NCBI GenBank assembly: GCA_964252035.1
Contig: CAXUOO010000297.1
Source of the DNA: Podarcis erhardii
Taxonomy: Eukaryota
DNA: 64,000 nt
Direction: 5' to 3' (one strand)
Part shown: positions 9,001-18,000 of the stretch, piece after piece
How the letters are laid out: each line of letters begins with the position of its first letter
Numbering within the stretch: position 1 is the stretch's first letter
Made by a program: the position numbers

Positions 9001-12000
9001 TATGATTGCTGATGAATGCGACTGTGCGATGAACATGCGACATACTAAGAAGGTACAACTGCACTAGTGCTAGATTGGTATCGCGGAACATGAGGCGATG
9101 ATTTGTAGCATCGATATATCGTTTGTCATGTTTGAGAACACGGAGGTATGGGGAACATTTGCTTATTTCAAATGTGTGTCAGGTATTTTCGAGCGGTCCA
9201 AAGAGTCTTGCATCGACAATCAGATGAATACCATTTATTGTACATCATCGCATGTCAATTGGCATCGTCTTTGTGACGGATGAGGGCTGCGCGTTTTGTG
9301 TATGCTCTGTTGGTGATGAGGAGACGCTGCTTTGTTTTGCGATTCCGGAATGCGTTACAGAAGTCTTCAAAGGTATATAGATGACGCTTCGGCGAGCGCG
9401 ATTGTTTTTAGCTAGTATATTCGGATGCTGCATTGGCTCATAAGCGGCTCCGAAATAGACTCGGAGGGAGTCTATTTGATTACACAAATATTTTAGTCTA
9501 GTTTGGAAGGTGGCAGTATATACTGCGTAATAGGAGAAATGAGATATGTTTCAACAAGTAAGGCGTTTTAGATGCCTGGTCGTTTATATGTTGATGAGAG
9601 CCTGTTTCTGAAGGCCACTCAAGTGTTAACATGATCAATCCGCTTGACCTGTCGAAAATGTGTCGTTGTCGAGAGAAGCTGTTCTCAGCCGCTGGTTTGA
9701 TTCCGAAAGGTGTCGTTTGATGCTGCAGAATATCAGTTCTAGATTTTTGGTTCGTTGGGTAAAGCACACGGCTTGTGGGCAGTTTGTGCCGCCTGCTTAG
9801 TGCATGGAGGTTCGGCATATAGACTATCTAAACGGAGAGAATATATCACTTGGCTAGCACATAGTGCAATAGTGTATAAAAAAGTCTGCAAAAGTGTGGT
9901 ATAGGATCTGGTGGTCGGTGTAGTCTTGCCGACAGCAAACGGAATTTGTTAAAAATGATGATATGCAGAGATGCGAGCAGAATGGCGCGGTGAGAAAAAA
10001 GGCAACTGCAAGAGAGTTTTCGTCTATCACAGATGAGATGATAGCTTAGGGCTGACTGCTTTTATATAAGCAGGGATAAGAAGTTGTGAGCTTTTGTATG
10101 TGATGGTAATTTGTGTAGCAGTTTCTACACTGTGGGCGGTAGTTGCAGTATGGTGGGTACACTTCAGGAACTGCGCAAGGGCGTTTCTTTCCAACGCTAT
10201 TCGTTCAACTAGTCAGCCAAACGTGTCAGCAGAATTAAGAATTGGCATAGATGTTTCGGTCATAGAAAAAGTTAAACTGTTAGACGCCTTCATATGATAC
10301 TGGTTTTTCCCTGGTTTCGCGTAGCTGGCATTTCTGTTTCGGGCTTAGACTGTGACAAACATTCATGATAGAAGTTTCATTTGTAAAAAGCAGAGCGTAC
10401 GGTTTGCCTGTCTCGACAGCGTTTTGTATCAGGACATTGGTATAATGATTCATAGCCAGTGAGCTCCTGTGGTGTAGCCTTGAGTAGAGAGTCTCACTTC
10501 GGGGAACCGCGGTTGTATGTGAATCTCTCAGAACATATGAAGAGACATGTGGTTTTGTGCCTAAGTTTGGGTTAGCGAGATCGAGGTCAGATCACACTTA
10601 AATTGCTTTGACAGCCTGTAAGTGCGTTTGTCAAGAAATAAGCGACAGAGTAAATATAGAAAGCTGAGCTGTAACGGGTCATGGCAGGTTTAATAAACGA
10701 TTCACACAATGAATGGCGAATATGAAAAACGGGGACTGTTTTTCATATTTGGTGAAATCGAGGTGTTCGCAGTCAGGGCAAAACTACCATTCATATGACT
10801 GCGAAGAAAGAATATGAATGGTTTGAGCGATTGACAATGAATGTTTACAAGGAAGAACCGTGTAGACTCTTGATAAAGTAAAATGAGTGTTTCCTTGTCT
10901 GGAGAAGGTGACGTCGCTAAGGCTTGGATTCTAGCTCTGTGTGGACGTCTTTCGACTACATAAGTTGAGCGGCTGAAGCATTTTCTGTGTGTATACTTTC
11001 TCAAACAAACAACGTAGATTCTATACAGGACGTGGTGGCCGTATGCGCGAATTTTTCAGTGAATAGATTCTGGGATTTGAAGAAACGCTGATGTCGGCGA
11101 AGAGCTGTGCTGTGGTTCCATGCTATTGCAGTGGTTTTCGACAATAGAGCCAGTTCAATATGAGCAGTGAGTAAAGGCGTCGATGCGTTCTGGATGTTTT
11201 ATCTTTTATGACTGTTGATGAATGCGACTGTGCGATGAACATGCGACATACTAAGAAGGTTCAACTGCACTAGTGCTAGATTGGTATCGCGGAACATGGG
11301 GCGTTGATTTGGGCATCTATGTTTTGTTGTAACATTGTGCAGCAGGTATGCTCGAGCGATCGAAGATGTTTGGCATCGCCAATCATTTTTCTAAAATCTT
11401 TCATGCACTACCGCAGGTTCGGTGGAATCATCTGCATAAAGGATGAGGTTTGCGGATGCAGTAAGCCGGTGACAGCTTGCATTGGGTGCCTCGAAGAGTA
11501 TGAGACGATTCTGTGAGCGTGATTGTTTTTCAGCTACACTTTGTGTTGCTAAGGTGGCTTACGAGGGGCTAAACGATAGGCTTGAAGGTGTGTATTCAAT
11601 CACAAAAGTGTTTTTTTCAGTTTGAAATGTAAGAGAATATTTCGCTTGACTGGAGAAAAGATATGTAGCTTAACAAGCAGAGGTTTGTTAACGCCTGATC
11701 GTCTTCGTCTGAATATAAGTGGAAATAGATTTCTTAAGTCCACCACAATGCTGCTTCGCAACAGGTATATAGATTTTTTCATTAAGCGCACGTGCCGTTC
11801 GTAGTATCAAAGTGATTCGCAGCGTCTTTCTTAGACGCTCTTAATATGCAACTGTTGCTCCTTTGGCCGTTCGCCAGTGTGTCGTTTTCTAGAGGTTGTC
11901 CTCAGACTCTTTCATTTCAATGCATGAGAGAAAAGCTGTTCTCAACCGCATTGTAAAAATGCTGAAGGATGTCGCTGGGTGTTGTAGAAAATCAGTCCTA

Positions 12001-15000: not shown

Positions 15001-18000
15001 CTATTTGTATCTTCTGAAAGGTTGTAGGTGCACCTGTTGACTAATGCACTATTTGTATCTTCTGAAAGGTTGTAAGTGCACCTGTTGACTAATGCGGGAG
15101 AGAATAGATGTAGGACGCTGAGATGTGACCAAAAATGCTAGGATGAATAAATGATTTACATGGTATATGGCGCACAAGGGAGAATGCTGTCTTTCCTCAT
15201 TTTTGGTGAGGTCGAGTCGTTTGCAGACTAGTGTAAAATTACAATTCTCATGAGAGCAACAAAGGAGAATCCGGAAAGGTTGTGGACTGATAATGAATGT
15301 TTACAAGGAAGAAACGCGTAACTTAGCTGGTAGCGTAAAACGAATGTTTCGCTGTCTGAAGAAAGTGACGCAGTTGTGGCTTAGGAACTCATTCTGGCTA
15401 TACTTCTCTCATTTACACGAATTGAGCGGCTGAGGTTTTTTATGTATTTTCTTTTTCAACCGAACAAAGTAAATTCTACGCAGAACGTGGTGGCGGTAGG
15501 CGCTTATTTCCACTGAGAATGATTGTCGGATTCGAAGAAACGCCGGTGTTGCCGAAGATCTGTGCTCTGGTTCTAGGTTGATGGAGATTCTTCAACAGGG
15601 GAATTAGTTCAATATGAGCAAAGTGTAAAGAGGTGTCGAGGTGCCTTATTTCTTATGTCTTGTATAGTTGTTGTTAAGTGCGAATGTGTGATGAGCCTGC
15701 TACATATCACGAAGATACAATTACACTAGTGCGAGAGTTATATCGTGGTTCACGAAGAGTTGATTTGTAGTACCGATACATTTTTAGAGAGGATTGGGAA
15801 GACGGGGTTACCAGGGACATTAACATACTTTATAATGTGTATCAAGTATTCTCGAACGGTCCAAAGAGCCTTGCATCGACAATCAAATGAATACAGTTTA
15901 TTGTACATCATCGCAAGCCAATTGGCATAATCTGCGTGACGGATGAGGGTTGCGCGTTTTGTGTATGCTCTGTTAATGATGAGGAGACGCTGCTTTGTTT
16001 TGCGATTCCGGAATGCGTTAAAGATGTCTCCAAAAAGATATACATGACTTTTCGGCGAGCGCGATTGTTGTTAGCTAGTATATTCGGATGCTGCGTAGGC
16101 TTATAAACGGCTCCGTGATAGACTCCGAGGGTGTCTATTTGATTACACAGATATTTATATCCAGTTTGGAACGTGGCAGTTTATAGTGCGTGATAGGAGA
16201 AATGAGATATGTACCAACAAGTAAGGCGTTGCAGATGCCTGGTCGTTTATATGTTGATGAGAACCTGTTTCTGAAGGCCACTCAAGTGTTAACATGATCA
16301 ATCCGCTTGACCTGTCGAAAATGTGTCGTTGTCGAGAGAAGCTGTTCTCAGCCGCTGGTACGATTCCGAAAGATGTCGTTTGATGGTGCAGAAAATCAGT
16401 TCTAGATTTTTGGTTTGTTGGGTAAAGCACACGGCTTGTGGGCAGTTTGTGCCGCCTGCTTAGTGCATGGAGGTTCGGCATACAGACTATCTGTAGGTGG
16501 AGAATATACTGCTTGACTAGCACTTAGTGCGGTACTGTATAAGCACGTCTGCGAAACTATGTTACAGGATCTGGTGGTCGGTGTAGTATTGGCGAGAGCA
16601 AACCGAATTTGTTAAAAATGATGATATGCAGAGATGCAAGCAAAAGGGCGCGGTGAGAAAAAAGACAACTGCAAGAGAGTCTTCGTCTATCACAAATGAG
16701 ATGATATCATTGTGGTGATTGATTTTATATAAGCAGGAATAAGAAGCTGAGAGCTTTTTTATGTGATAATAATTTGTGTAGCAGTTTCTGCACTGTGGGC
16801 GGTAGTTGCAGTATGGTGGGGATACTACAGAAACTGCGCAAGGGCGTTTCTTTCCAACGGTATTCGTTCAGCTAGTCAACCAAACGTGTCAGCAGAATTA
16901 AACATTGGCATAGATGTTTCGGTCATAGAGTAGGTTAAACTGCTAGACGCCTTCATATGATACTGGTTCTTTCCTGGTTTTGCGTAGCTGGCATTTCTGT
17001 TTCGGTCTTAGACTGTGACAAACAATCATGATAGACGAATCATTTGTAAAAAGCACAGCGTACGTTTTCCCTGTCTCGACAGCGTTTTGTAACACGACAT
17101 TTGTTCAATGATTCATAGCTAGTGAGCTCTTGTGATGTAGCCTTGAGTAGAGAGTCTGACTTCGAGGAACCGCGGTTGTATGTACATCTCTCAGAACATA
17201 TGAACAGACATATGGTTTTGTGTTTACATTTGGGTTAGGGAGATTGAAGTCAGATCACATCTGGATTGCTCTGACAGCTTGTAAGTGCGTTTGCTAGGAA
17301 ATGCGCGAGAGAGTAGATATAGAAAGCTGGGACGTAACGGGTTATGGCAGGTTTAATAAATAATTCACACAATGAATGGCGAATATAAGAAATTGGGGCT
17401 GGTTTTCTTATCTGTTGAGATCGAGTCGTTCACAGACTGGTGCAAAATTACAATTCGTATGAAAGCGAAGAAAGAAAATGAATGATTTGAGCGATTGAAA
17501 ATGAATGTTTATAAGGAAGAACCGTGTAGACTCTTGATAGCGTAAAATGAGTGTTCCGTTGTCTGAAGAAGGTGACGTCATTAAGGCTTGGAAACTAGCT
17601 CTGTGTGTGTGAACGTCGTTCGCTTACATGAGTGGAGCGGCTGAAGAATTTTCTGTGTGTATTCTTTCTCAAACAGACAACGTAGATTCTATACAGGACG
17701 TGCTGGCGGTAAGCGCGTTTTTTCAGTGAATAGATTCTGGGATTTGAAGAAAAGCTGATGTCGGCGAAGAGCTGTGCTGTGGTTCTATGCTATTGCAGTG
17801 TTTCTCGACAATAGAACCAGTTCAATATGAGCAGTGAGTGATGGCGTCGATGCGTTTTGGATGTTTTATCTTTTACGACTGCTGATGAATGCGACAGTGC
17901 GATGAACATGCGACATACTAGGAAGGTACAACTGCACTAGTGCTAGATTGGTATCGCGGAACATGACGCGATGATTTGTAGCATCGAGATATCGTTTGAG

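What the first reader, a model, noticed from the sequence alone, without database searches (positions are those of the whole stretch)
11300..15870. Ancient divergent monomers embedded in register and co-amplified inside a homogenised array
Seen: about two monomer lengths of sequence that are clearly homologous but far more diverged from the main family, and from each other, than main monomers are among themselves. The island is carried three times almost unchanged. Established: in alpha-satellite arrays old monomer layers usually sit at array edges. Inference: the island is either a relict captured in the amplified unit, an import from a related array at another locus, or a functionally retained variant module.
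Basis: partly seen in the sequence, partly recalled or inferred. Interest (0 to 1): 0.65.

Follow-up and report, generated by a model that had tools for sequence, protein, structure and literature searches.

The report
Diverged repeat island copied within satellite
A 64-kb array of 2.2-kb non-coding repeats carries, three times, the same two-unit stretch of a much older sister repeat, copied along with its neighbours by ordinary block duplication; this is normal satellite-DNA behaviour, seen here unusually clearly.

Summary
The window is one head-to-tail array of a ~2205-bp non-coding monomer, not a 171-bp alpha satellite. Nineteen main monomers are 89.1-99.9% alike, mean 92.2%.

At 11311-15857 lies 4546 bp (2.06 units) of homologous but far more diverged sequence:
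- D0 tail: 58.6% identity to main
- D1: 69.3%
- D2: 66.2%
- D1 to D2: 69.9%

It sits in register. The two junctions are abrupt and fall at nearly the same monomer phase, 1641 and 1729. D units share two extra segments that main monomers lack, so they come from a separate ~2.3-kb tandem family.

The island recurs at 20184 (2 differences) and at 37871 (51 differences). Copy 2 came from a clean 8873-bp tandem duplication with one crossover, mapped to 18 bp. Copy 3 lies in a non-adjacent four-unit block, and part of it was later exchanged with copy 1.

I found no sign of coding, RNA, a conserved box or selection. Relic and import cannot be separated inside the window; junction phases lean towards an insertion of a whole number of units. 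The organism is unknown and I did not take it for human. Verdict: ordinary satellite dynamics, of modest interest.

The parts
1..64000 (+). Tandem array of a ~2205-bp non-coding monomer: 28 full slots and 2 partial. The + strand is G/T rich.
   Evidence: No Rfam family, no tRNA, no Pfam family at cut-off in 26 ORFs, no 3-base periodicity of substitutions, no internal sub-repeat.
11311..15857 (+). Island copy 1: 4546 bp of D-type sequence (D0 tail, D1, D2). It enters at main coordinate 1641 and leaves at 1729.
   Evidence: Change points; sliding identity; alignment.
11311..11927 (+). D0 tail, the 3' part of a D-type unit. It is 58.6% identical to main and is the most diverged piece.
   Evidence: (102 bits, E 3e-33).
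11928..14230 (+). D1, a complete D-type unit of 2303 bp, 69.3% identical to main.
14231..15857 (+). D2, a D-type unit from its start to main coordinate about 1729. It is 66.2% identical to main and lacks about 170 bp (profile 533-702).
14999..15095 (+). 48-bp tandem duplication inside D2, present in all three island copies (also 23872-23968 and 41559-41654).
   Evidence: the profile coordinates step back from 971 to 925.
11786..11932 (+). Approximate span of two extra segments (about 75 bp and about 37 bp) at the D0/D1 unit boundary. The D1/D2 boundary (about 14100-14240) shares them. All main units lack them.
   Evidence: Alignment A1 (2 D boundaries against 3 main boundaries). All main slots are 2197-2210 bp and contiguous on the profile.
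20184..24730 (+). Island copy 2. It has 2 differences from copy 1 within the island.
37871..42417 (+). Island copy 3. It has 51 differences from copy 1: 2 in the part matching 11311-13345 and 49 in the part matching 13346-15857.
19875..19893 (+). Crossover interval of the 8873-bp tandem duplication. Slot 9 matches slot 13 to its left and slot 5 to its right.
   Evidence: 120 of 120 informative sites match slot 13, then 451 of 451 match slot 5, with a single switch.
11011..28757 (+). Two adjacent units of about 8873 bp (four slots each) of the recent tandem duplication. Ends are approximate, placed one period either side of the crossover. There are 4 differences in the 11020-18543 stretch compared.
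7035..15974 (+). Older four-slot block (4.04 units) shared with 33595-42534 at about 1-2% divergence. Its ends lie at main coordinates of about 1767 and 1846.
   Evidence: support 7010-7076 and 15952-16035.
11837..13345 (+). Stretch with no difference between copies 1 and 3. It suggests a later exchange between island copies.
   Evidence: maximum gap 1510 bp, reached in 0 of 100000 uniform draws.

Best explanation
The window is a long-monomer (2.2 kb) non-coding satellite array.

One stretch of about two unit lengths comes from a diverged sister family. That family (D-type) has units of about 2.3 kb, two extra segments of its own, and units about 30-40% diverged from one another. The stretch was joined to main-family sequence once, in register, at two abrupt junctions of nearly the same monomer phase.

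It has since been carried along passively in block duplications of the array:
1. An older copy of a four-unit block went to a non-adjacent place.
2. A roughly 1.5-2 kb exchange then took place between island copies.
3. A very recent 8873-bp (four-unit) tandem duplication arose by a single unequal crossover.

Because D-type sequence is only about 60-70% identical to main, it cannot be overwritten by main monomers. It therefore persists as a marker and exchanges only with its own copies.

Shown: the anatomy, homology, divergence, single origin of the junctions, the crossover and the block limits.

Inferred: the mechanism of the first joining and of the non-adjacent copy (in-register homologous exchange with a D-type array, or re-integration of a circle holding a whole number of units), and the absence of function.
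For: - Array and slots.
- Divergence and homology.
- Trees: the main family is one group (22 rows, support 100/100) and D0, D1 and D2 each sit on long branches of 0.2 to about 0.58.
- D-specific shared segments at both D/D boundaries.
- Junction phases are identical in all three copies, so the island arose once.
- The flanking main parts carry no excess of D-like states: 0.24-0.29 for the three island-flank heads against 0.20-0.45 for the 19 other main slots, and 0.35-0.39 for the three tails against 0.19-0.50.
- Single clean crossover: 120/120 then 451/451 informative sites.
- Copies 1 and 2 show 4 differences in the 11020-18543 stretch compared.
- The four-unit block limits are 7035 and 15974.
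- A 1510-bp run between copies 1 and 3 has no difference, matched in 0 of 100000 draws.
- The four block or island boundaries fall at phases 1641, 1729, 1767 and 1846, a span of 205 bp out of 2205. My arithmetic gives about 0.003 for four independent uniform phases.
- No coding, RNA, motif or conserved box.
Against: - The origin of the island cannot be seen from one window. No D-type array is available to serve as donor.
- The phase coincidence of the island's own two junctions alone has a chance of about 8%.
- The block's right limit lies only 117 bp from the island's right junction, so the four phases are not fully independent.
- The crossover of the recent duplication is at phase 1332-1350, outside that cluster.
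- The non-adjacent copy could instead be the remains of an eight-unit tandem duplication. Slots 1-3 against 13-15 are 94-95% alike, above the 92% mean.
- Near-identical copies in a satellite could be assembly errors, and reads were not available.
- Absence of a detectable element is not proof of no function.
Confidence: 0.7

Rival explanations
1. In-place relic. The island is what is left of an older, unhomogenised layer of the same array. Main-family sequence expanded or converted inwards from both sides, and the leftover was then duplicated.
For: D0, D1 and D2 are as far from each other as from main, like old monomeric layers. They are consecutive, in register and share their own boundary segments, as neighbours in an old array would be.
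Against: The junctions are abrupt and the flanking main parts show no excess of D-like states. The two junction phases differ by only 88 bp. Independent conversion fronts would give that about 8% of the time (my arithmetic).
Confidence: 0.3
2. Import of a whole number of units. A two-unit piece of a D-type array from elsewhere entered by in-register homologous exchange, or as a two-unit extrachromosomal circle re-integrated by one crossover. The non-adjacent four-unit block moved in the same way.
For: The island is 2.06 units and the older block 4.04 units, each with both ends at nearly one phase. All four ends lie within 205 bp of monomer phase. The left junction follows a locally well conserved stretch at main 1548-1630. 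Circles of exact multiples of tandem repeats are reported in PMC3225859, of which I saw only the abstract start in the listing. Junctions at conserved motifs between divergent satellite monomers are described in PMC3694981, of which I read passages.
Against: Recombination between sequences only about 70% identical is inefficient (general knowledge). No donor array or circle has been seen. The phase statistics are modest and partly dependent. The conserved stretches are weak (best 40-bp window 33/40).
Confidence: 0.4
3. Functionally retained variant module, for example a boundary, a protein-binding unit or a transcript source kept by selection.
For: The island is kept in three copies. Part of it is identical between distant copies.
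Against: The identity is explained by recent duplication and exchange. Divergence in the island (1.1%) is similar to that in the main flank (1.6%). There is no conserved box, no Rfam family, no coding signal and no notable dyad. The D units differ 30-40% from each other.
Confidence: 0.05
4. Assembly artefact. One real island was multiplied by mis-assembly of a repetitive region.
For: Copies 1 and 2 differ at only 4 positions in the 11020-18543 stretch compared. Satellites are prone to false duplications.
Against: The copies are not identical. Copy 3 differs at 51 positions in the island and lies among different main monomers. The hybrid slot 9 has a clean biological crossover signature.
Confidence: 0.08

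Closest known systems
Alpha-satellite arrays with old diverged monomer layers and hybrid monomers (primates; recalled knowledge, no paper read here for it)
   Same: A young, more homogeneous family sits beside homologous, much older monomers. In-register hybrid monomers form by unequal exchange. Multi-monomer blocks are amplified.
   Different: The unit here is 2205 bp, not 171 bp. There is no regular higher-order period. The old units lie inside the array, not at its edge. No CENP-B-box-like motif is present (motif recalled). A centromeric role is unknown.
Heterogeneous higher-order repeats as in Arabidopsis-type arrays (bioRxiv 10.64898/2026.09.17.752431, section 6 read)
   Same: Paired blocks of contiguous monomers are highly similar at irregular spacing. 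This is attributed to unequal homologous recombination.
   Different: Here one such block carries units of a separate, 30-40% diverged family. That makes the block limits and the crossover visible to the base.
Meloidogyne satellite repeats built of highly divergent monomers (PMC3694981, passages read)
   Same: Divergent monomers are combined and amplified as one unit. Junctions lie at locally conserved stretches.
   Different: Those are short monomers in regular higher-order repeats, with defined boxes of about 20 bp. No defined box was found here.
Long-monomer satellites: 103 of 263 centromere satellite families of 201 bp-5 kb; 2.2-kb Athila-derived units in Rosa canina (same preprint, section 6 and one passage of section 9); NicCL3 of Nicotiana, 2.2 kb (PMC3351487, passages read)
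   Same: A kilobase-scale, complex, non-coding unit in long arrays. For NicCL3, mean similarity of about 0.90-0.93 between units and no Pfam match are also shared.
   Different: The NicCL3 restriction map is not met: 0 BamHI sites in 64 kb and no HaeII site in the consensus. Descent from a retrotransposon could not be tested beyond Pfam, which found nothing.

Membership tests
Satellite DNA, long-monomer tandem array | Many head-to-tail copies of one unit on one strand | tested here: met
   28 full and 2 partial slots, contiguous on the profile.
Satellite DNA, long-monomer tandem array | Non-coding unit | tested here: met
   No Pfam family at cut-off in 26 ORFs. No homologue of the 254-aa ORF among proteins of 139-445 residues. 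Substitutions show no 3-base periodicity. No Rfam family or tRNA.
Regular (regimented) higher-order repeat | A fixed period of n distinct monomers repeated with high identity through the array | tested here: not met
   The identity matrix shows only isolated blocks at offsets of 4 and 12 slots, and no period holds across the 28 slots.
Alpha satellite | Monomer of about 171 bp | tested here: not met
   The unit is 2205 bp with no internal sub-repeat.
Alpha satellite | CENP-B box in part of the monomers (motif recalled from memory) | tested here: not met
   0 matches on both strands.
NicCL3 (Nicotiana 2.2-kb repeat) | Unit of about 2.2 kb, mostly in tandem | tested here: met
   description in PMC3351487.
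NicCL3 (Nicotiana 2.2-kb repeat) | One BamHI, one SpeI and one HaeII site per unit (PMC3351487) | tested here: not met
   BamHI has 0 sites in 64 kb. HaeII has 7 sites in the window and none in the consensus. SpeI has 0-2 sites per slot.
Centromeric satellite | Bound by the centromeric histone, at the primary constriction | not testable with these tools
   No chromatin or map data are available, and the organism is unknown.
Transposon-derived satellite | Similarity of the unit to a transposon (protein domains or LTR/UTR DNA) | tested here: inconclusive
   No transposon domain in Pfam scans of 26 ORFs. No transposon DNA library was on hand.

The most novel reading that the evidence does not exclude
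Blocks in this array move as whole numbers of units between non-adjacent places. The two-unit D island and the four-unit block both have their ends at one small region of the monomer (phases 1641-1846). That is what excision and re-integration of unit-multiple circles at a preferred break site would give. The D island, too diverged to be overwritten by main units, would then be a natural barcode that records such events and shows exchange between distant copies only with its own kind.
Probability: 0.2. Interest if true: 0.5.

Novelty: new member of a known kind. Interest (0 to 1): 0.27.

Why it matters
In itself this is ordinary satellite turnover.

Its use is as a clean natural marker. The island is too diverged to be converted by main units, so it records events that are usually blurred in homogeneous arrays. 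Three are readable here:
- a single unequal crossover mapped to 18 bp
- the limits of a four-unit block
- a later exchange between copies 26.6 kb apart

If the whole-unit, same-phase pattern holds across the full array, it would give a direct test of circle-mediated spread against unequal crossover as the way satellites spread.

Tried and rejected
- **Coding repeat.** All 22 ORFs of 100 aa or more lie on the - strand. However, no Pfam family reaches its cut-off in 26 ORFs. No protein homologue was found for the 254-aa ORF; only lengths of 139-445 residues were searched. Substitutions show no 3-base periodicity. The ORFs are put down to the G/T-rich + strand.
- **RNA genes.** 0 Rfam families at gathering score and 0 tRNAs.
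- **Short-period satellite or sub-repeats.** TRF finds only the 48-bp duplication. A self-comparison of the consensus finds nothing.
- **Motifs.** Telomere-type runs: 0. CENP-B-box-like motif, recalled from memory: 0.
- **Conserved functional box across main, D0, D1 and D2.** The longest identical run is 12 bp and the best 40-bp window is 33/40.
- **Dyads.** One weak pair in the island and one in an equal length of main.
- **Graded transition at the island flanks.** No excess of D-like states.
- **Continuing strand-biased mutation as the cause of the skew.** Rare variants give C>T 0.086 against G>A 0.088 per site.
- **NicCL3 identity.** The restriction map is not met.
- **Tribolium madens paper.** Its '2.2 kb' is an array length and is not relevant.
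- **Relatives elsewhere.** A 30-base stretch conserved in the main family has 0 matches in genome contigs, which holds bacteria and archaea only. The island has no match in plasmids or phages by distant blastn.
- **Literature.** A search for a 2.2-kb satellite, monomer or tandem repeat gave 1 paper, NicCL3. '2.2-kb repeat' together with 'centromere' gave 0 papers.
- **Not checked.**
  - No collection of eukaryotic DNA was on hand.
  - The rest of the assembly could not be searched for D-type arrays.
  - Supplementary Table 2 of the centromere atlas preprint could not be seen. It lists satellite families by unit length and might name this family.
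Full report
**What the window is**

The 64000 bases hold no N. Composition is uniform: GC 0.42-0.44 and GC skew +0.21 to +0.27 in every 2-kb window.

Tandem Repeats Finder, with periods up to 500, sees only a 48-bp duplication present three times. Self-comparison shows a head-to-tail array of a unit of about 2205 bp on the + strand. A profile built from 19 main units tiles the window into a partial slot, 28 full slots and a further partial slot.

The unit appears to be non-coding:
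- No internal sub-repeat.
- No Rfam family at gathering score and no tRNA.
- No Pfam family at cut-off in 26 ORFs.
- Substitutions among units show no 3-base periodicity.
- The 254-aa ORF has no homologue among proteins of 139-445 residues.
- All 22 ORFs of 100 aa or more lie on the - strand. I put this down to base composition.
- CpG is not depleted (observed/expected 1.05).

So this is a long-monomer non-coding satellite, not an alpha satellite. The organism is unknown. I did not take the contig for human.

**Check of the observation**

Nineteen main slots are 89.1-99.9% identical (mean 92.2%, K2P 0.083, 171 pairs).

Sliding identity and a change-point fit show the following. Slot 5 is main-like up to main coordinate 1641 (window 11311, support 11309-11321) and then turns diverged. 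Slot 6 is diverged throughout. Slot 7 is diverged up to main coordinate 1729 (window 15857, support 15833-15877) and then turns main-like.

The diverged stretch is 4546 bp, or 2.06 main units. The three slots total 6663 bp, so register is kept.

| Piece | Compared with | Identity |
|---|---|---|
| D0 tail | main | 58.6% |
| D1 | main | 69.3% |
| D2 | main | 66.2% |
| D1 | D2 | 69.9% |
| D0 | D1 | 61.0% |

Homology is secure. Against the main profile, D1 scores 1113 bits over positions 1-2190, D2 scores 403, 195 and 63 bits, and the D0 tail scores 102 bits. There were 0 hits in 60 shuffles.

In maximum-likelihood trees the main family is one group (22 rows, support 100/100). D0, D1 and D2 each sit on a long branch of their own. 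With no outgroup the root is unknown. 'Ancient' therefore means only 5 to 7.5 times deeper than the spread within the main family.

The island occurs three times, at 11300-15870, 20173-24743 (99.956%) and 37860-42430 (98.884%). The junction phases are identical in all three. Nothing else in the window matches the island above 74.2%.

**What the D units are**

Both boundaries between D units (D0/D1 and D1/D2) carry two extra segments, of about 75 and about 37 bp. The segments are homologous to each other and are absent from the three main boundaries aligned. No main slot is long enough to hold them: main slots measure 2197-2210 bp, against 2303 bp for D1.

The D pieces therefore come from a tandem family of their own with a unit of about 2.3 kb. 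Its neighbouring units are about 30-40% diverged from each other. D2 also lacks about 170 bp and holds the 48-bp duplication.

**How the island was copied**

*Copy 2.* From about 10970 onwards copies 1 and 2 are almost identical, with 4 differences between 11020 and 18543. Slot 9 is a hybrid. It matches slot 13 at 120 of 120 informative sites up to window 19875, and slot 5 at 451 of 451 from window 19893. There is one switch. This is the signature of one unequal crossover, or an equivalent replication slip, that duplicated 8873 bp (four slots) in tandem.

*Copy 3.* Copy 3 lies in a block matching 7035-15974, with supports 7010-7076 and 15952-16035. The block is 4.04 slots long and about 1-2% diverged. 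Outside it divergence returns to main-family levels. The block is not adjacent to copy 1.

Once the recent duplication is set aside, four unrelated main slots lie between the block and copy 1. An eight-slot tandem duplication later overwritten in its main part remains possible. Slots 1-3 against 13-15 are 94-95% alike.

*Later exchange.* Within the island, copies 1 and 3 differ at 2 positions in 11311-13345 and at 49 in 13346-15857. A 1510-bp run shows no difference, which 0 of 100000 uniform draws reached. This points to a later exchange between island copies 26.6 kb apart. D sequence thus homogenises only with D sequence.

**Origin of the island**

The junctions are abrupt. The main-like head of slot 5 and tail of slot 7 are ordinary main sequence (90.8% and 90.9% to other main units). 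They show no excess of D-like states. There is therefore no graded older layer around the island.

The two junction phases differ by 88 bp. Two independent random phases would be that close about 8% of the time (my arithmetic). The four-slot block again has both ends at nearly one phase (1767 and 1846). All four ends lie within 205 bp of the 2205-bp unit, which is about 0.003 for four independent phases (my arithmetic).

Two cautions apply. The block's right end is only 117 bp from the island's right junction. The recent crossover lies elsewhere, at phase 1332-1350.

The pattern leans towards exchanges or insertions of whole numbers of units at a preferred region. Examples would be in-register exchange with a D-type array, or re-integration of unit-multiple circles. 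An untouched relic is less favoured, but the window alone cannot decide.

**Function**

Nothing points to one:
- Divergence between copies 1 and 3 is 1.1% in the island and 1.6% in the left main flank.
- The longest run identical in main and two D units is 12 bp, and the best 40-bp window is 33/40.
- Inverted repeats are as scarce as in main sequence.
- Rare variants in main units show no strand bias (C>T 0.086 against G>A 0.088 per site). The skew is therefore inherited with the unit.

**Comparison with what is known**

- Kilobase units are common among centromere satellites. The centromere atlas preprint reports 103 of 263 families at 201 bp to 5 kb, and irregular block-wise higher-order repeats attributed to unequal recombination (10.64898/2026.09.17.752431, section 6 read).
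- The same preprint mentions 2.2-kb Athila-derived units in Rosa canina (one passage). I could not test that link.
- NicCL3 of Nicotiana is a 2.2-kb tandem unit with 0.90-0.93 mean similarity and no Pfam match (PMC3351487, passages). Its map of one BamHI, one SpeI and one HaeII site is not met here: 0 BamHI sites in 64 kb and no HaeII site in the consensus.
- Repeats built of highly divergent monomers, joined at conserved stretches, are described in Meloidogyne (PMC3694981, passages).
- Layering of old alpha-satellite monomers at array edges is recalled knowledge, not read here.

**What stayed unchecked**

- No eukaryotic DNA collection was on hand.
- A 30-base main-family stretch has 0 matches in bacterial and archaeal genomes. 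The island has no match in plasmids or phages.
- The rest of the assembly, read support and chromatin could not be examined.
- Supplementary tables of the atlas preprint, which might name a 2.2-kb family, were closed.

**Verdict**

Its explanation is ordinary satellite turnover. A two-unit piece of a diverged sister family was joined once in register, then carried along in block duplications. It was later exchanged among its own copies. It is a new member of a known kind, of modest interest, and useful mainly as a natural marker of array dynamics.

Noticed in passing
window 1-2138 and 61864-64000: The two ends of the window are 99.6% identical at an offset of 61863 bp (28 slots). The match is cut by the window end, so the whole 62 kb, with its three islands, may itself be one unit of a larger repeat.
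   Followed up: partly
window 11837-13345 versus 38397-39905 (approximate): Copies 1 and 3 of the island show no difference over 1510 bp, while the rest of the island differs by about 2%. This is a sign of exchange between copies 26.6 kb apart. At 13346, copy 2 shares its base with copy 3, not with copy 1.
   Followed up: yes
whole window, - strand: All 22 ORFs of 100 aa or more, including one of 254 aa at 61381-62145, lie on the - strand at a recurring monomer phase. No family, homologue or codon periodicity was found. A decayed coding origin of the unit is not excluded.
   Followed up: partly
whole window: CpG is not depleted (observed/expected 1.05), while CC (0.49), GG (0.68) and TA (0.74) are scarce and GC (1.32) is in excess. 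This argues against long-term methylation-driven CpG decay.
   Followed up: no
window 51694-63992 (slots 24-28): Neighbouring units at the right end are 95-98% alike, above the 92% mean. Slots 3, 15 and 26-28 form a subfamily. This looks like a local amplification of single units.
   Followed up: no
main coordinates 1641-1846 of the unit (window 7035, 11311, 15857, 15974 and their copies): Four independent-looking block or island boundaries fall within 205 bp of monomer phase. This may be a preferred site of breakage or exchange.
   Followed up: partly
window 14999-15095, 23872-23968, 41559-41654: There is a 48-bp tandem duplication inside D2, present in all three copies and therefore older than both block duplications.
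   Followed up: yes
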